Shown piece by piece: positions 1-17,713 of a DNA stretch of 17,713 bases. A program made the position numbers and the translations under genes. The stretch's first letter is position 1. Every line of letters begins with the position of its first letter. Where the stretch lies: the NCBI GenBank assembly GCA_048885535.1, contig JBHLLO010000063.1, positions 1-17,713 on the forward strand, read 5' to 3'. The notes beneath the pieces are model-generated. The model did not search any database, was not told the DNA's origin, and worked only from the letters and a program-made list of their open reading frames with translations. Origin of the DNA: Candidatus Hermodarchaeota archaeon. Its GTDB lineage: Archaea > Asgardarchaeota > Lokiarchaeia > Sigyniarchaeales > SOKP01.

Positions 1-565
1 GATTAACAATATATTCTTTGGGTTTAGGAGTAGAAATAACATATGAGGGAGATTCTCCAAATATAATTTCTGCTAAAGTTTGAAAAGTGTAATAAACCTT
101 CTGTTCATCTTGAGATAAAATTTCTGTAAATGCTGAAAGATTAAAGTTTTCTGCTATTGAAACCCCTTCTTCCCTGGAAACTTTTCGATTTCCACCTAAA
201 TTAACCTTAGTTCCAATCAACATTATGGGAATCGTTCCTACCTTTTGTCTAATAATTTGAATATATTCACTTAAGATACCTAAAGAATTTGGATCGGTGA
301 TATCGTATAAGAGTATAGCACCTCTGGCTCCGAGACAATACGTAGGCAACAAAAATCGAAAACGTTCTTCCCCTCCAAAACTCCATATTTGAAATTTAAT
401 GCTTCGCCCATCTAATTCTATAGTTTTAACATGGAAATCAACACCAATGGTTAATCTTTCAGATGGGTTAAAGACACTATGAAAATATCTTCGCGAAAAA
501 GATTGCTTTCCCTTATAGTTATCATTGAAGAGGATTATTTTAAATACGTAATCACAACTTGACAT
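1..565 (-). CDS. Rab/Ras-like small GTPase domain protein with degenerate G motifs; 3' end runs off the window
   Basis: Hand translation from ATG at 565: MSSCDYVFKIILFNDNYKGKQSFSRRYFHSVFNPSERLTIGVDFHVKTIELDGRSIKFQIWSFGGEERFRFLLPTYCLGARGAILLYDITD...IPIMLIGTKVNL...KVSREEG...KPKEYIVN. Rab-family segments (TIGVDF, KFQIW, EERFR, GAILLYDIT) are clear. No stop before position 1. Confidence 0.9.
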   Translation of the reverse strand, partial: MSSCDYVFKIILFNDNYKGKQSFSRRYFHSVFNPSERLTIGVDFHVKTIELDGRSIKFQIWSFGGEERFRFLLPTYCLGARGAILLYDITDPNSLGILSEYIQIIRQKVGTIPIMLIGTKVNLGGNRKVSREEGVSIAENFNLSAFTEILSQDEQKVYYTFQTLAEIIFGESPSYVISTPKPKEYIVN

Positions 566-12974: not shown

Positions 12975-13904
12975 TTATCTGCTAAAACGCTTTTTTAAGA
13001 AGATGCTCAAAATTGCTATAATTCCGACTATAGATATGGAAGCAATAGTAATAGTGCTTTCAATTGGGATTGTTTCAGGGATTAATAAAGTCCAGGTTGA
13101 TAAAGTAGTTATCTCAGTGGTTAAATATCCATCTTCATTTATTGTCGGAGAAGTTACCCATTCATTAGTTTCATCAACATAACATGCCCACTGCCCTAAT
13201 CGATTTTGATTGGTTGCTCTTATTCTTAGTCTCGCTTTTAAAAAATTACCATTATAAGGACATTCAGAATCGCATTTACATTCAGGGTCACAATTACATT
13301 GGCAGTTACACTCACAAATACATACAGGATCACATTGGCATTTACAATTGCAGATACAATTACATTCTAACTCACAGTTACATTCACATTCGCAAGGGCA
13401 TATACAATCTGGATCACATTGACATTGACACTCACACTCACATGAACATTCAGGATCACATTTGCAATTACAATTACAACTTGGAGAACATTCCATAGAA
13501 ATACAAAATCCTTCTAAATACCTATACATATTTCGGTTTCTTACTCTATGAAGGCTTCCGTTCATTAATCCGAGTTGAGTTTCTTCTCTCGTACAAGTCA
13601 TTGTCATTCTATGCTTTGTATCTCCTTCAATTTCGATGATTACATCTTTTTCTCCTATTCTCAAAGCTTCACAATTAATTTCTAACTCTAAGTCTGTATT
13701 AGTACATATTGTGAGTCGTGTTCTTTCACGAAAACAGAACATAGTTCGATTATTACTCTGTAGTTGTATCTGAATTGAATCTCCTTGAACATCTATGATT
13801 TGATCGGGACCCTCAAAACCTAACACGTTTACAGAACTTACTAGGGTAAACACCATAATTAATGTGAGAAGGCTTAACAATACTTTACTAACATTTTTTT
13901 TCAT
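12975..13904 (-). CDS. Secreted/membrane-anchored protein with a metallothionein-like Cys-rich tandem repeat
   Basis: N-terminal signal peptide-like segment, C-terminal TM helix followed by KKRFSR, and a 77-aa tract containing 32 Cys. Confidence 0.8.
   Translation of the reverse strand: MKKNVSKVLLSLLTLIMVFTLVSSVNVLGFEGPDQIIDVQGDSIQIQLQSNNRTMFCFRERTRLTICTNTDLELEINCEALRIGEKDVIIEIEGDTKHRMTMTCTREETQLGLMNGSLHRVRNRNMYRYLEGFCISMECSPSCNCNCKCDPECSCECECQCQCDPDCICPCECECNCELECNCICNCKCQCDPVCICECNCQCNCDPECKCDSECPYNGNFLKARLRIRATNQNRLGQWACYVDETNEWVTSPTINEDGYLTTEITTLSTWTLLIPETIPIESTITIASISIVGIIAILSIFLKKRFSR
13260..13490 (-). repeat. Intragenic 42-nt (14-aa) tandem repeat encoding DPx-C(XC)5
   Basis: GG(A/G)TCACA anchors at 13285, 13327, 13411 and 13453, all at multiples of 42 nt. 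Confidence 0.85.
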
Positions 13905-14064
13905 TAAATAACACCAATATTTTTGGTTAATGATTAATTAAAAGTTCAAATAAAAAGGATTAAGGTGCAATCTTTCCCAATAATTTCCGATTAAAATGTC
14001 AAAATACAAAAAAACAATTTTTGAGATAGATATAAAATTAATAGAATAACCAATAAAGAAAAGC

Positions 14065-15771
14065 TTATGCATTAATCCTTCTAATTTCTTCTTCTAGTAA
14101 TTTATCAATGTCAATAAAATAGAATTTATCCACTATAAGCTCATATGTGTTGCTGTAATCGCTAAACCGGGATCGACCAGCAATAACGATATCTTTTCCA
14201 AGTAATTCTGCTGAAATTTTCTCCAAAAATTTAACCAGATCCGGAGTATTTTGCAATAATCTCATTTCTTCTGTTCTTTGTTTAATTAACCTTTCAGCAA
14301 TTCTTCCCATAAAAGCTGTTCGGATAGTACCTGTCCCATCATCAATTATTAAATTAATTATCATTCTAGCAATAGGTGGTTCTCTCTCGTGATTTGGTAT
14401 TAAGCACTTGTCATATATCCTATTGCAGATACTACAAGCTTCATAAATAAAGATTTTAGTTATCTCCTTAGCGATAAATCCCTTTATTGTGAAGGTTCCA
14501 ATGCTATCTATTGAGGATAGAGAAGTGTATTTTTTTTCGGGTGCATAATATTCTGTAACTTGCTTAATTTCTGTTGTATCTATCTCCATAGATGAAAAAT
14601 TGAGAAAAACTACTTCTTTTTGTCTATCAACTCTACTATTCTTAACCATTACATTCTTAAGTGTTATTTTATATCCTTCTTTAATCATCTTAGAATAATC
14701 TAAAGCAGGTCTTCCCCAAATTCTAACCCTGATAGAATCAGAGTCGTCAGCTACAAAGAAATTTAAAACATAATTCTCTTTTCCCGATCTTATAAAATGT
14801 ATTTTCCTAAGATCATCGATAGAAACTATATATCCTGTAAAATGAGCTAATCCCTCACTCTTTTTAAGATCATGTACAATTTTTGTATATTCTAGCTTTT
14901 GAGATACAATATCCTTCTCTTTCTTAATATTTGTATCAGAAGTAGCATATAACTCTATTGCATTATTTACTCTGTCTCGATGCAATATTAAATCAGAAAT
15001 ATGGATATAATCCCCAACCTGTAAATTTTGAATTTTATCTCTATCATTATCCCAAAATGTGATTCTAATAATTCCTGAAGTATCCATCAAATTAATTGAA
15101 ATTAGATATCCACTTTTACGAGTTTGAGTTTTATATCTTTTAAGAGGGAAAATTTGGATAACCTCTCCTTTTAAAGAGATTAGTTTTTCATTCATATCAC
15201 CCTTTATATCGATTATATTTATGAGATTTTCAAATACTTTTGGATATCGCTTATAATCAACATCTTCAGGGCTTAAGATAATGCGTGAATAGCGCCCAAC
15301 ATGGATTTCTAAATTGTTATACTTATCAACCTTTGTAAAACCATTCATAATTTTAACTAAAGTATTCTTTCGAAAATTTTCTTGCTTAAACATGTCAACA
15401 TGTTCATTCCATAATACAACGCGAATGTCTCCTGTACGATCAGTTAATATAAAAGTGCCAAGAAAGCCCTCCCGTCCATCTCTATGAATAAATTTATGTA
15501 TGGGATAAATTAACTTAATTCTACCATAAAGGATTATGTTTCTCATATTTGGATTAAGATCTGAAATAAGAAGCTCAATTTCAAGTAATTCTAATTGATT
15601 TACGATATCGATACCTAATTCTTTTGCAATAATGAATAAGGCACCTTCGTCAGAGATTAAACCTTTTAGTTCAGATTTTTTCTCTTCTACCATTTGAAAT
15701 ATTTCTGTTCTAGTTAAACCTGTCTCTTCAATAATTCTATTTAAAAAATTTTCGAATTTCCTTCTCATCAT
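14065..15771 (-). CDS. rpa: Replication protein A-like ssDNA-binding protein (N-terminal helical domain, 4 OB folds, Zn finger); candidate retron partner
   Basis: N-terminal EI..MVEEKK.ELKGLISDEGALFIIAKELG of archaeal RPA. Repeated OB signatures DRTGDIRVVLW, DTSGIIRITFW, DDSDSIRVRIW and DDGTGTIRTAF. Zn finger YEACSICN...C....H. Confidence 0.9.
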   Translation of the reverse strand: MMRRKFENFLNRIIEETGLTRTEIFQMVEEKKSELKGLISDEGALFIIAKELGIDIVNQLELLEIELLISDLNPNMRNIILYGRIKLIYPIHKFIHRDGREGFLGTFILTDRTGDIRVVLWNEHVDMFKQENFRKNTLVKIMNGFTKVDKYNNLEIHVGRYSRIILSPEDVDYKRYPKVFENLINIIDIKGDMNEKLISLKGEVIQIFPLKRYKTQTRKSGYLISINLMDTSGIIRITFWDNDRDKIQNLQVGDYIHISDLILHRDRVNNAIELYATSDTNIKKEKDIVSQKLEYTKIVHDLKKSEGLAHFTGYIVSIDDLRKIHFIRSGKENYVLNFFVADDSDSIRVRIWGRPALDYSKMIKEGYKITLKNVMVKNSRVDRQKEVVFLNFSSMEIDTTEIKQVTEYYAPEKKYTSLSSIDSIGTFTIKGFIAKEITKIFIYEACSICNRIYDKCLIPNHEREPPIARMIINLIIDDGTGTIRTAFMGRIAERLIKQRTEEMRLLQNTPDLVKFLEKISAELLGKDIVIAGRSRFSDYSNTYELIVDKFYFIDIDKLLEEEIRRINA

Positions 15772-15800
15772 AACTTTCCTCTCTCTATCTGTATAACTCG

Positions 15801-15979
15801 CTTTAGAATTTTATCAGCTTGTTTTGTTAATTGCATTCTAGTGTTTGTTTTGTTATCATAGCTGCATTATAGGGTGTTTTGTTACCTTAAATGCACTTTT
15901 ATCACTCCATATGACGGAACATCATATTATCCTAAGGAAAAATATATATCCTTTTGGATGGCCTGAAATAACTCCAAAG
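15801..15979 (-). ncRNA. Predicted retron msr-msd non-coding RNA
   Basis: Closing stem 5'-CUUUGGAGUUAUUUCAG (15979-15963) pairs with 5'-CUGAUAAAAUUCUAAAG (15817-15801), 15 of 17 positions including 2 G.U pairs that form only on the minus strand. Unpaired G15962 lies opposite G15818. Hairpins at 15929-15959 and 15909-15927. Begins 4 nt after the RT stop codon. Confidence 0.65.
15820..15895 (+). repeat. Three direct repeats of TGTTTTGTTA, each followed by TGCA
   Basis: Exact 10-mer at 15820-15829, 15846-15855 and 15875-15884; TGCA at 15832, 15863 and 15892. Confidence 0.9.
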
Positions 15980-15983
15980 TGTT

Positions 15984-17036
15984 TTATAATTTTAAATTTT
16001 TATTTATCATATTTTTAATTGAAATAAAATCTTGGTAAAAGTGATTATATTTCTCTTTATTGACCATTAGGGCATAAGCGCACCTTCCTTCAATATTTTT
16101 CATTATCTCCATGACGCTATCATCTAAATACTTATAATCATTTTTTAAATGATACAGAGCCGAGCGTAGATTTTTGATCCATCTTCTTGGTAAAGATGGT
16201 TGAGAATTCTGAACATTTATCCCTGTCACACGTTGAAAATTACGATTATATGATAAGCGTTCTTTTTTTCTATTAATTGAGAATCCATGTGCTTCAATAG
16301 ATGAGTGTATTTTTTTTATTAAATTTGTGGTGATATATCTCTTAGATTGACTGGAAAAGGTTATATCATCGGCGTATCTGGTATATCTCAACCCATATCT
16401 CATTGCAAATTCACTAAGTTCTTTATCAAGTTGATCACACACCAGATTAGAAATTATAGGGCTTGTACACGCTCCTTGAGGCAAAAACGCCGCTTTATAA
16501 AGGTTTAATAGTGTTTTATCTTGAATGCCATAATCGTATTTGGGTAAGAATGTACATAATAATCCAAACAAGTGCGAAATATATTCTGAATACCCAATAT
16601 TCATGAAAACCTTACAAACTTTATATAGTTTAATTGATGGAAAGAAATCTACTAAATCAATATGATAAGTTATCAGAGATTTTAAATGTTCTTTAGCATT
16701 TGAGACAATTGAACGTTCTTTTGTAAAACCATGAGCAAATTCACTTGGCTTAACTTTTTCTAGGATTTCCCTGAGAATTTTTAATTGAATCTGTTTCAAT
16801 TCAGGTGTAGGAGTGATGATCTCTCGACGACCTCCTGATTTCTTAGTAATAAAAAAAGTGTTGTAAGTTAAAATTCTTGAGTTGAATTTAAAATAATCTT
16901 TTAATAATAAATCGCTAATTTCCAAGAAATTAGCTAAATCCCTGAAATTGTGAATTAATGGTAATCCATTCACTTTTAATTTTAAAAAATTAGAATCATG
17001 TGTACTTAAATCTAATTTATGATGACATTCAAGCAT
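15984..17036 (-). CDS. Retron-type reverse transcriptase
   Basis: KKSGGRREI..P..ELK.IQ, AHGF...RSIVSNAKEH (retron region X, NAxxH), DLVDFFPSI, LPQGACTSP, YTRYADDITFS and VTG (region Y). 350 aa with no maturase or endonuclease domain. Confidence 0.93.
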   Translation of the reverse strand: MLECHHKLDLSTHDSNFLKLKVNGLPLIHNFRDLANFLEISDLLLKDYFKFNSRILTYNTFFITKKSGGRREIITPTPELKQIQLKILREILEKVKPSEFAHGFTKERSIVSNAKEHLKSLITYHIDLVDFFPSIKLYKVCKVFMNIGYSEYISHLFGLLCTFLPKYDYGIQDKTLLNLYKAAFLPQGACTSPIISNLVCDQLDKELSEFAMRYGLRYTRYADDITFSSQSKRYITTNLIKKIHSSIEAHGFSINRKKERLSYNRNFQRVTGINVQNSQPSLPRRWIKNLRSALYHLKNDYKYLDDSVMEIMKNIEGRCAYALMVNKEKYNHFYQDFISIKNMINKNLKL

Positions 17037-17201
17037 CGAAACATATTAAACATTTTTGCCTTATAACTTCAGAAGAACCATAAATATTTAAAGAATATGC
17101 AAAAATTGAAATCAAAAATTAAGGATTAGTATACCTTAAAATTCATTTTATATAATGAAATATTATAATAATAACAATCAATTGGAATATTGTGAGATTC
17201 T

Positions 17202-17713
17202 TTGATTTGGTTTACTGCTGATTTTCATCTTTCTCATAAGAATATTATTGATTACTGTAACCGTCCGTTTAATAGTATTGAGGAAATGGATAAAGCCATA
17301 ATCAAGAATCTTGAAGAATGTGTTAAATCAAGTGATATGCTCTACTTTCTTGGAGATTTAACCTTTAAGCAAACAATCGCACGTGACTTTTTTGAGAGAT
17401 TTAATGATCTTGAGATTCATTTCATAATAGGAAATCATGATTCAAAAGAAGTAATAAAACTTGCTGAAAAACATTGTATTTCAATATCTAATTTGAAGGA
17501 TATTATTATAGAAGACCAATCAATTACGCTCTGTCATTACGCAATGCGTGTGTGGAATAAAAGTCATTTTAACGCTTGGCAGTTATACGGACATTCTCAT
17601 GCAGGCCTTTCTCCTATTGGGAAGCAATATGATGTCGGAGTAGATAACAATCACTTCTTTCCTGTATCATTTGAAAATTTAAAGGTTATAATGAAAAAAC
17701 AGCCTGATAATTT
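17202..17713 (+). CDS. Calcineurin-like metallophosphoesterase (COG4186-like); 3' end runs off the window
   Basis: Hand translation from TTG at 17202: MIWFTADFHLSHKNIIDYCNRPF...LYFLGDL...IGNHD...LCHYAM...LYGHSH...DVGVD. All five metallophosphoesterase motifs (DxH, GD, GNHD, H, GHxH) are present. No stop before the window end. Confidence 0.92.
   Translation, partial: MIWFTADFHLSHKNIIDYCNRPFNSIEEMDKAIIKNLEECVKSSDMLYFLGDLTFKQTIARDFFERFNDLEIHFIIGNHDSKEVIKLAEKHCISISNLKDIIIEDQSITLCHYAMRVWNKSHFNAWQLYGHSHAGLSPIGKQYDVGVDNNHFFPVSFENLKVIMKKQPDN

What the first reader, a model, noticed from the sequence alone, without database searches (positions are those of the whole stretch)
15801..15979. Intergenic RNA with retron a1/a2 stem, G.G branch site and two msr-like hairpins, downstream of the RT
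Seen on the minus strand: a 17-bp imperfect terminal stem (15979-15963 with 15817-15801) whose two G.U pairs favour the RT-sense strand. Directly inside it G15962 faces G15818. Hairpin A is AUCC-AA-AAGGA/UCCUU-A-GGAU (15959-15929) and hairpin B is AUAUGA-UGUUCCG-UCAUAU (15927-15909). Established: in retrons such as Eco1/Ec86 the 2'-OH priming G lies just 3' of the first inverted-repeat arm, opposite another G, followed by msr stem-loops. Inference: G15962 is the branch G, and the msDNA would read as the plus strand from about 15819 to about 15900. The position after the RT, rather than upstream of it, is atypical.
Basis: partly seen in the sequence, partly recalled or inferred. Interest (0 to 1): 0.85.

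Follow-up and report, generated by a model that had tools for sequence, protein, structure and literature searches.

The report
Archaeal retron RNA placed after its RT
An Asgard archaeon carries a retron-type reverse transcriptase whose template RNA lies directly after the gene instead of before it and is followed by an extra copy of the single-stranded-DNA-binding protein RPA, a retron layout not found described in the papers searched.

Summary
On the minus strand, 4 nt after the stop codon of a retron-type RT (15984-17036), lies a 179-nt element. It has a terminal stem a1/a2 (15979-15963 with 15817-15801), G15962 facing G15818, and two hairpins (15959-15929, 15927-15909). It folds better than shuffles (z -2.64). 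The RT-upstream spacer does not (z +0.33).

The same architecture sits just 3' of the RT in four other Asgard loci whose RTs are 40-45% identical. The motif CAG|G|CYRUCC, hairpin A and hairpin B with a conserved loop are kept. Three stem pairs of hairpin B change on both sides. The a1/a2 arms differ in sequence but always pair. A G faces a G in 5 of 5 loci.

The gene after the element varies: an RPA paralogue here, a RadA paralogue in two genomes, unrelated genes in two. The RNA therefore belongs to the RT.

msDNA synthesis is inferred, not shown. Two exact sub-fragments of the predicted msd occur elsewhere in the genome and are unexplained.

Verdict: a new variant of a known kind, a retron with a 3'-placed ncRNA and RPA/RadA-like partners. 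Confidence 0.85.

The parts
15984..17036 (-). Retron-type reverse transcriptase, 350 aa
   Evidence: Pfam RVT_1 1.5e-24. PADLOC RT_XIII 4.4e-101, and every listed match (best 25 of 57) is a retron RT model. NCBIfam retron St85 family 5.8e-62, below its cut-off. YADD 221-224, N113-A114-x-x-H117 and V270-T271-G272 are invariant in 13 clade members.
15963..15979 (-). a1, the 5' arm of the terminal stem; it starts 4 nt after the RT stop codon
   Evidence: Pairs with 15801-15817 in the MFE fold. Duplex -13.5 kcal/mol, closing exactly at the inner ends. The equivalent arms in 4 other loci differ in sequence but still pair.
15962..15962 (-). Candidate branching G (2'-OH primer), within the conserved motif CAG|G|CC
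   Evidence: A G stands directly 3' of a1 in 5 of 5 loci, and G9-G10-C11 are invariant columns in alignment A3. Its priming role is inferred from retron biology (passage seen in PMC8632793).
15929..15959 (-). msr hairpin A (outer stem AUCC/GGAU, inner stem AAGGA/UCCUU)
   Evidence: Present in the MFE fold. The outer 4-bp stem is paired in 95% of cells across 5 loci. The interior varies in length.
15909..15927 (-). msr hairpin B: 8-bp stem AUAUGAUG/CGUCAUAU with a 3-nt loop
   Evidence: Present in the MFE fold. Across 5 loci 97.5% of cells pair and 3 pairs change on both sides. The U.G pair at columns 53-59 occurs in 4 of 5 loci and fits only the RT-sense strand.
15818..15908 (-). Predicted msd (template). 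The msDNA would read as the plus strand from C15818 upwards. G15818 faces G15962.
   Evidence: Position between msr hairpin B and a2. The base before a2 is G in 5 of 5 loci. As DNA it is mostly unpaired: MFE -5.1 kcal/mol, z -0.94. Its extent and the stop site are inferred.
15819..15884 (+). Three direct repeats TGTTTTGTTA inside the msd (15819-15829, 15845-15855, 15875-15884)
   Evidence: the repeat finder families D3 and D8. Meaning unknown.
15827..15899 (.). Part of the msd that recurs exactly elsewhere in the genome (15837-15899 on contig C59, 15827-15879 on contig C65)
   Evidence: BLAST at 100% identity over 63 and 53 nt. Dispersed internal exact repeats of 40 nt or more are rare in this assembly.
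15801..15817 (-). a2, the 3' arm of the terminal stem; it ends 30 nt before the RPA-paralogue start codon
14065..15771 (-). RPA paralogue (RPA'), 568 aa; candidate retron partner
   Evidence: OB-fold, DUF2240 and Rep_fac-A_C hits. Replication factor A models match far below their cut-offs. The usual RPA is elsewhere (G000:C22, 44% identity), and RPAs of genus relatives are 37-45% identical. It groups with P0121 and P0122 on a long branch apart from 59 ordinary Asgard RPAs. P0122 is on a contig of the same length (4768 nt) as RT relative P0004.
17202..17711 (+). Small metallophosphoesterase (runs off the window end); possible further component or island neighbour
   Evidence: Pfam Metallophos. 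The family is found in 21 of 161 class genomes. It lies next to the RT-RadA' pair in G097 and G008, but no RT lies within about 8 kb in 13 of 17 other places.

Best explanation
This is the msr-msd non-coding RNA of a retron in an Asgard archaeon, placed 3' of the RT gene instead of 5' of it.

Shown:
- The RT is of the retron clade.
- Starting 4 nt after its stop codon, the same strand carries a1 (15979-15963), a G (15962), two hairpins (A 15959-15929, B 15927-15909), about 90 nt of template, a G (15818) and a2 (15817-15801).
- This layout is conserved, with covarying stems, after the RT in five loci, whatever gene follows.

Inferred:
- The element is transcribed on the RT mRNA.
- The RT binds the two msr hairpins. 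a1/a2 pairing places G15962 opposite G15818, and the 2'-OH of G15962 primes reverse transcription of the msd from 15818 towards about 15900.
- The product is an msDNA of about 80-90 nt, T/G-rich and largely single-stranded (plus-strand sequence), branched to the msr RNA.

More tentative:
- The RPA paralogue encoded 30 nt downstream (a RadA paralogue in two related genomes) binds this single-stranded msDNA and forms the sensor/effector part of the system, as accessory proteins do in bacterial retrons.
For: - RT identity: PADLOC RT_XIII 4.4e-101, all 25 listed matches (of 57) are retron RT models. YADD, NAxxH and VTG are invariant in 13 clade members. Relatives L021 and L182 also match RT_XIII best.
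- Fold: MFE -35.0 kcal/mol, z -2.64, with the terminal stem and both hairpins.
- Homologous loci: the RT-downstream spacers of the window, L021, L002, L182 and L186 all hold ...CAG/CCG|G|CYRUCC, hairpin A, hairpin B with a GUUCCG-type loop, a template region and G|a2.
- bG = G and facing base = G in 5 of 5 loci. Cognate a1/a2 duplexes are -12.7 to -18.7 kcal/mol; the non-cognate mean is -5.8.
- Hairpins: 96.7% of 60 cells paired, 3 pairs changed on both sides, 0 of 500 shuffles reach the covariation score, and slid registers drop to 20-58% paired.
- L182 and L186 have a classic long msd hairpin just before a2.
- The element follows the RT whatever the next gene is: RPA' (window), RadA' (G097, G008), a GH38 mannosidase (G068), a convergent zinc-ribbon gene (G115).
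- Upstream spacer: z +0.33; only 67 and 96 nt in L002 and L182.
- A relative's contig in run X5 has G>A at 15979, which keeps a U.G pair with G15801 on the RT-sense strand only.
- Partner: RPA' is an extra, fast-evolving paralogue, apparently linked to an RT again on a 4768-nt contig. RadA' is a third RadA copy found only beside the RT.
Against: - No RNA or msDNA data exist. No RNA run holds the locus, so transcription, priming and msDNA are inferences.
- Only five loci are available, and L021 and L002 are close to each other. Hairpin covariation rests on 3 pairs.
- The covariance model R1 found nothing beyond its own training loci: 5 of 151 class genomes matched, four being training loci (the fifth training locus, G115, was not listed) and one a false hit inside a coding region. 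It found nothing in the other 98 of 100 loci searched. There is therefore no independent validation set.
- The window's msd lacks the long stem-loop usual for msd.
- The window's own z-score is moderate: 4 of 200 shuffles fold as well.
- In 3 of 5 loci the a1/a2 duplex is about as stable on the opposite strand. The strand call rests on G.U pairs, hairpin B and RT orientation.
- The RT of L186 aligns in two frames and may be broken.
- RT-RPA' linkage outside the window rests on equal contig lengths, not on seen DNA.
- No known defence model matches RPA', RadA' or the phosphoesterase.
Confidence: 0.85

Rival explanations
1. The element is a conserved RT-binding structured 3' UTR that is not a retron template. 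It could be an autoregulatory RNA, or a template used in another way, as in defence RTs (DRT) whose ncRNA is copied without a 2'-5' branch.
For: - The position after the RT resembles DRT3, where a structured ncRNA lies downstream of the RT gene (passage seen in PMC8632793).
- The window's template region has three direct repeats and no long hairpin.
- No msDNA data exist.
Against: - The RT matches retron profiles at 1e-101 but Drt2 only at 1e-10.
- The a1/a2 stem closing on a G facing a G is the specific retron priming geometry, and it is kept in 5 of 5 loci.
- L182 and L186 have classic msd hairpins.
Confidence: 0.08
2. The repeated core (15827-15899) is a small mobile or recombination element (MITE-like repeat or att-type site). 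The surrounding pairing would then be incidental to the RT.
For: Exact 63-nt and 53-nt copies lie on contigs C59 and C65 in intergenic regions. Both sites lie where gene order differs from relatives.
Against: - The copies cover only the template part, not a1, a2 or the hairpins.
- They have different ends and no terminal inverted repeats.
- Identity does not continue into one flank, as att arms of an integrated element would.
- The a1/hairpin/a2 frame is conserved in four other genomes whose template regions are unrelated and have no extra copies.
- Nothing similar is found in 41 genus relatives, apart from one chance hit.
Confidence: 0.04
3. It is a chance fold in AT-rich spacer DNA, or a terminator or leader belonging to the downstream RPA-like gene.
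For: The genome is 30% G+C. Four of 200 shuffles fold as well. No Rfam family matches.
Against: The element is conserved with compensatory changes across RTs only 40-45% identical. It stays with the RT when the downstream gene changes. No terminator-like site was scanned in it.
Confidence: 0.03

Closest known systems
Bacterial retrons of Mestre type XIII (RT clade 10; myxobacterial vertically inherited retrons)
   Same: Best RT profile match: PADLOC RT_XIII, 4.4e-101 for the window, 7e-83 and 6e-107 for relatives. Retron RT motifs are present. The ncRNA has an a1/a2 stem and a branching-G geometry.
   Different: - The RT is about 350-400 aa and matches the profile only from position about 94 of 469.
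- No winged-helix/SWIM or HEAT/ARM partner is present. These partners define type XIII (passages seen in PMC7736814); Pfam and PADLOC on the neighbours found none.
- The ncRNA is 3' of the RT.
- The host is an archaeon.
- The msr model R1 finds nothing in the 79 bacterial RT loci searched.
Classical retrons such as Eco1/Ec86 (msr-msd-RT)
   Same: [quoted passage not shown] The geometry is met here.
   Different: Gene order is RT then ncRNA, instead of ncRNA then RT. The window's msd is largely unstructured. The partner is an RPA paralogue rather than a nucleoside deoxyribosyltransferase-like effector (that partner is recalled, not from a call).
Type V retrons with a cold-shock (OB-fold) DNA-binding partner
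   Same: The accessory protein is an OB-fold single-strand nucleic-acid binder. The type V association with a cold-shock domain is mentioned in PMC13712802.
   Different: Here the partner is a full-length, multi-OB, eukaryote/archaea-type RPA paralogue (or a Rad51/RadA paralogue in relatives). The RT clade is different.
DRT3 (UG3/UG8 defence RTs)
   Same: A structured ncRNA is encoded downstream of an RT gene (PMC8632793 passage).
   Different: The RT family differs: UG RTs against a retron RT. A retron-type a1/a2 stem with a G facing a G was not seen for DRT3 in the passage read; its absence there is recalled, not checked.

Membership tests
Retron (RT + msr-msd ncRNA) | RT of the retron clade with YADD, NAxxH and VTG motifs | tested here: met
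   PADLOC: all 25 listed matches (of 57) are retron RT models, best RT_XIII at 4.4e-101. Y221-A222-D223-D224, N113-A114-H117 and V270-T271-G272 are invariant. VTG as a retron signature: passage in PMC8632793. NAxxH as a signature is recalled.
Retron (RT + msr-msd ncRNA) | ncRNA contiguous with the RT whose 5' and 3' ends pair (a1/a2) | tested here: met
   15 of 17 positions pair. Cognate duplexes are -12.7 to -18.7 kcal/mol in 5 of 5 loci against a non-cognate mean of -5.8.
Retron (RT + msr-msd ncRNA) | Conserved G directly after a1 at the stem end (branching G) | tested here: met
   G in 5 of 5 loci, facing a G before a2 in 5 of 5. Invariant columns in A3. The chemistry was not tested.
Retron (RT + msr-msd ncRNA) | msr stem-loops between the branching G and the msd | tested here: met
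   Two hairpins. 96.7% of cells paired, and 3 pairs with changes on both sides.
Retron (RT + msr-msd ncRNA) | msd folds into a stable stem-loop | tested here: inconclusive
   Window msd as DNA: MFE -5.1 kcal/mol, z -0.94. L182 and L186 have long msd hairpins.
Retron (RT + msr-msd ncRNA) | ncRNA encoded upstream of the RT (usual order msr-msd-RT) | tested here: not met
   The element is 3' of the RT in 5 of 5 loci. The upstream spacer is unstructured, z +0.33. This is a usual, not a mechanistically required, feature.
Retron (RT + msr-msd ncRNA) | Production of branched msDNA (2'-5' link) | not testable with these tools
   No RNA or msDNA data. No RNA run was listed.
Retron type XIII (Mestre et al. 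2020) | Linked winged-helix/SWIM protein, often with a HEAT/ARM-repeat protein | tested here: not met
   Definition from passages in PMC7736814. Pfam on all 17 other window ORFs scanned and PADLOC on RPA' and ORF 12975-13904 show none.
Retron type XIII (Mestre et al. 2020) | Type XIII-specific ncRNA consensus structure | not testable with these tools
   The consensus is in figures and supplements that were not available. Rfam has no matching family.
Diversity-generating retroelement | Template repeat and variable repeat differing at adenines, with the VR inside a target gene | tested here: not met
   The two genomic copies are 100% identical over 63 and 53 nt and are intergenic. The RT matches retron models.
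DRT/UG defence RTs with ncRNA | RT of a UG/Abi clade | tested here: not met
   NCBIfam Drt2 only 9.8e-11 over 80 residues, against retron families at 1e-55 to 1e-62.

The most novel reading that the evidence does not exclude
Asgard archaea would have a retron lineage rebuilt around eukaryote-type recombination proteins. The RT makes a long single-stranded msDNA from a 3' UTR template. Dedicated RPA or Rad51/RadA paralogues load onto it. The msDNA can also end up in the chromosome: two exact msd sub-fragments sit at rearrangement junctions elsewhere in this genome. That would be natural retron-derived DNA capture or insertion, rather than only a defence decoy.
Probability: 0.12. Interest if true: 0.95.

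Novelty: new variant of a known kind. Interest (0 to 1): 0.8.

Why it matters
Retron RTs are known in archaea only as a small share of RT sequences (4% of archaeal RTs; passage in PMC8632793). My full-text searches found no paper describing an archaeal retron ncRNA, a retron ncRNA encoded after the RT, or RPA/RadA partners.

If the reading is right, three things follow:
1. Retron annotation pipelines that look only upstream of the RT would miss this class.
2. The priming geometry works from the 3' UTR of the RT's own mRNA, which suggests cis use of the template.
3. The partners are paralogues of the eukaryote-like ssDNA-handling proteins RPA and Rad51/RadA, in the archaeal group closest to eukaryotes. 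This gives a testable link between reverse-transcribed ssDNA and recombination proteins, and possibly a compact source of long unstructured msDNA for editing tools.

Tried and rejected
- Rfam: no family reached significance in 13500-17713 (best E 0.041, an unrelated snRNA inside the RPA' gene). None reached gathering score in 19 loci.
- Alternative template upstream of the RT (17037-17201): z +0.33, 120 of 200 shuffles as good. Rejected.
- Covariance model R1: beyond its training loci it gave only G065:C25, which lies antisense inside an ORF. A BLAST hit in G153:C11 (78% over 53 nt) has no RT nearby. Both were taken as chance.
- My own crude scan for G-flanked inverted repeats on 72 bacterial RT loci did not discriminate: mean best stem 11.14 upstream, 11.38 downstream, 10.99 shuffled. 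I therefore could not show by computation where the bacterial cousins keep their ncRNA.
- Viral contigs: 30 RT relatives, none above 40% identity.
The phylum search gave no relative closer than 45%.
- Complex prediction for RT with RPA': no answer, score 0.00, controls not run. This is not evidence either way.
- The look-up of sequencing runs: no RNA holder listed.
- Read laying: only contigs were available. Parts of the element lack cover in X5 and X6, and most of the X5 contig's differences were not printed.
- att-site reading of the msd copies: rejected, because identity stops on both sides within the element.
- DGR reading: rejected, 0 mismatches and intergenic copies.
- The second RT copy on C103 is most likely a strain-variant branch of the assembly graph. 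Its last 77 nt equal C63:16144-16220, and 77-nt overlaps mark many contig ends. It is not counted as an independent locus.
- L021, L181 and L227 carry the same sequence (100%) and count as one locus; so do L002 and L228.
- Closed or unavailable: the search of earlier findings, the listing of cluster members, the look-up of encoding contigs (not called), and paper supplements (not asked for). The supplementary figures of PMC7736814 on ncRNA structures may bear on whether any retron type has a downstream ncRNA and on the type XIII consensus.

Full report
**Setting.** The window is contig C63 of a 3.09-Mb, 112-contig assembly with 30% G+C. The sources' names for the closest proteins place it in the Asgard archaea (Promethearchaeota). 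An unrelated Ras-family GTPase at 2-565 fits that.

The region of interest reads, on the minus strand:
- RT, 17036-15984
- a 212-nt spacer, 15983-15772
- a 568-aa OB-fold protein, 15771-14065

A small metallophosphoesterase (17202 onwards) diverges from the RT on the plus strand.

**The observation.**
- a1 (15979-15963) and a2 (15817-15801) give 15 pairs in 17 positions, with two G.U pairs.
- G15962 follows a1 and G15818 precedes a2.
- Hairpins A (15959-15929) and B (15927-15909) are as described.
- RNAfold of the minus strand returns exactly this architecture at -35.0 kcal/mol, z -2.64, with 4 of 200 shuffles as good.
- The plus strand has no terminal stem, z -1.62.
- The a1/a2 duplex is 5 kcal/mol better on the RT-sense strand.

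Taken alone this is only moderately beyond chance in AT-rich DNA.

**The RT.** It is a retron RT.
- PADLOC's best model is RT_XIII (4.4e-101). All 25 listed matches (of 57) are retron RT models.
- NCBIfam retron families score 1e-55 to 1e-62, against Drt2 at 1e-10.
- In an alignment with 12 relatives, YADD, N-A-x-x-H and V-T-G are invariant.

It belongs to a small clade of short (about 350-400 aa) RTs. Closest are a 98% partial copy, variants at 84-85% and 70%, and ten proteins at 44-51%. Among one genome per species, RTs of this short clade were found in G008, G068, G097 and G115. That came from 12 of 161 class genomes with any match at E<=1e-50, and nothing closer was found in 400 phylum genomes.

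**The decisive evidence: homologous loci.** I read the spacers on both sides of the RT in the five accessible short-clade loci: the window, L021 (= G097), L002 (= G008), L182 (= G068) and L186 (= G115). In every one, the spacer after the RT stop codon holds the same layout:
- an arm ending in CAG or CCG
- a G
- C-Y-R-U-C-C opening hairpin A, which closes with GGRU
- hairpin B, with an 8-bp stem and a loop in a GUUCCG context
- a template region of 50-190 nt
- a G, then an arm complementary to the first

The element starts 4-47 nt after the stop.

The arms differ completely between lineages, yet each pairs with its own partner. Cognate duplexes are -12.7 to -18.7 kcal/mol, the mean of the 20 non-cognate pairings is -5.8, and every duplex closes exactly at the two Gs.

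On the alignment of the msr module (A3), 96.7% of 60 cells pair. Three pairs of hairpin B change on both sides (A-U to G-C, G-C to A-U, A-U to U-A). None of 500 shuffles reaches the covariation score, and sliding the partner by 1-3 columns drops pairing to 20-58%. A U.G pair in hairpin B (4 of 5 loci; C-G in the fifth) fits only the RT-sense strand.

L182 and L186 also have a textbook long msd hairpin directly before a2.

The upstream spacers are 67-218 nt, AT-only and unstructured. For the window, z is +0.33.

This is the canonical retron geometry: complementary ends, and a conserved branching G in msr used as 2'-OH primer (passage in PMC8632793). It is moved to the 3' side of the RT.

**It belongs to the RT, not to the next gene.** The gene after the element differs between loci:
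- window: an RPA paralogue
- G097 and G008: a Rad51/RadA paralogue followed by the phosphoesterase (Pfam Rad51 about 1e-70)
- G068: a GH38 mannosidase
- G115: a convergent zinc-ribbon gene

**Limits.**
- Only five loci could be read, and two of them are related.
- The covariance model R1 recovered four of its five training loci and one false hit in 151 class genomes. It found nothing in 79 bacterial type-XIII-like loci or 19 further archaeal loci. The msr module is therefore clade-specific and there is no independent test set.
- No RNA run holds the locus.
- Contigs of a relative in run X5 cover 15890-16054 at about 83% identity. They show G>A at 15979, which keeps a U.G pair in a1/a2 on the RT-sense strand. 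Most differences were not printed.

**Predicted product.** Priming at G15962 would copy the template from G15818 towards hairpin B. The result is a plus-strand msDNA beginning C-T-T-G-T-T-T-T-G, about 80-90 nt long. It carries three TGTTTTGTTA repeats and is almost wholly single-stranded (MFE -5.1 kcal/mol). This is inference.

**Candidate partners.** The 568-aa protein has the domain set of archaeal RPA but is an extra copy.
- The genome's ordinary RPA is on C22 (44% identity). The RPAs found in 36 of 41 genus relatives are 37-45% identical.
- In a quick maximum-likelihood tree it groups with P0121 (99%) and P0122 (50%) on a long branch, apart from 59 ordinary Asgard RPAs (SH-aLRT 100). Long-branch and composition warnings apply.
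- P0122 comes from a contig of 4768 nt, the same length as the contig of the 70% RT relative P0004. P0121 and P0001 likewise share 11338 nt. Linkage is likely, but the DNA was not seen.

The RadA paralogue of G097 and G008 is a third RadA copy beside two ordinary ones. It belongs to a clade of about six proteins separated by a gap (71% to 52% identity) from ordinary RadA, and it lacks their helix-hairpin-helix Pfam hit.

Two different ssDNA-handling paralogues placed right after the template of an ssDNA-producing RT suggest that they bind the msDNA. This is an inference from gene order.

The phosphoesterase family is patchy (21 of 161 genomes). It lies near an RT in only 4 of 17 other places, so its membership is open.

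**Unexplained: msd fragments elsewhere.** Window 15837-15899 recurs exactly on C59 (63 nt) and 15827-15879 on C65 (53 nt).
- Both lie inside the predicted msd, both lack its first 9-19 nt, and both sit between convergent genes.
- Exact repeats of 40 nt or more form 182 segments in the assembly. Most are 77-nt contig-end overlaps or local tandem repeats.
- At C59 the 84-nt spacer holding the fragment stands where relative G153 has 1065 nt including a 288-aa ORF.
- At C65, similarity to the closest relative G018 stops at the neighbouring gene's end.
- The msd regions of the other four genomes have no extra copies.

Capture of abundant msDNA as filler at end-joining junctions would fit. It would also be indirect evidence that the msd exists as free DNA. 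But the polarity is not shown, and n = 2.

**Comparison and novelty.** The element works like a retron and meets the sequence-level defining features. The exception is the usual gene order. It is closest to type XIII by RT profile but lacks that type's SWIM and HEAT/ARM partners.

Full-text searches found no paper describing a retron ncRNA downstream of the RT, an archaeal retron ncRNA, or RPA/RadA partners. I saw listings and passages only. Subscription journals and supplements were not covered. A downstream ncRNA is known for DRT3, a different RT family.

I rate it a new variant of a known kind.

Noticed in passing
G000:C59:3804-3866 and G000:C65:9958-10010 (copies of window 15837-15899 and 15827-15879): Exact 63-nt and 53-nt sub-fragments of the predicted msd lie in 3'-3' intergenic regions, where gene order differs from relatives G153 and G018. 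Possibly msDNA captured at repair junctions. The polarity is unknown.
   Followed up: partly
L021 3884-6921 (= G097) and L002 1387-3990 (= G008): A cassette of RT, then ncRNA, then a Rad51/RadA paralogue (334-345 aa, no HhH Pfam hit), then a 166-aa metallophosphoesterase. The RadA paralogue is a third copy in these genomes and forms a clade of about six proteins.
   Followed up: partly
window 17202-17711 and loci L201-L226: The small metallophosphoesterase family is patchy (21 of 161 class genomes) and multi-copy in G008 (4 copies). It lies near a retron-type RT in only some places. It is an accessory gene of unknown role.
   Followed up: partly
G000:C103:6636-8205 versus window 16144-17713: A 90.7% identical variant of the phosphoesterase-RT region. 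It ends in a 77-nt exact overlap with C63:16144-16220. It is most likely a co-assembled strain variant, not a second genomic copy. Many contig ends share 77-nt overlaps.
   Followed up: partly
window 12975-13904 (-): A 309-aa ORF downstream of the RPA paralogue with no Pfam or PADLOC match. It has a partial relative on G000:C14 (53% over 118 aa). Whether it belongs to the system is unknown.
   Followed up: no
L186 1477-2489 (G115:C87): The RT aligns in two pieces in different frames (residues 19-282 and 268-347). Either the gene is frameshifted or the sequence has an error. Its ncRNA is intact.
   Followed up: no
L233 7751-8732 (G008:C21): A second, more distant retron-type RT in G008 is split into two overlapping frame pieces, about 5.4 kb from another phosphoesterase copy.
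   Followed up: no
L182 564-1320 (-): A HEPN-domain gene and a small overlapping ORF diverge from the RT in G068. They may be an unrelated toxin-antitoxin pair, or this retron's partner.
   Followed up: no
window 2-565 (-): A Ras-family small GTPase (Pfam Ras 1.2e-32), consistent with an Asgard archaeal host.
   Followed up: no
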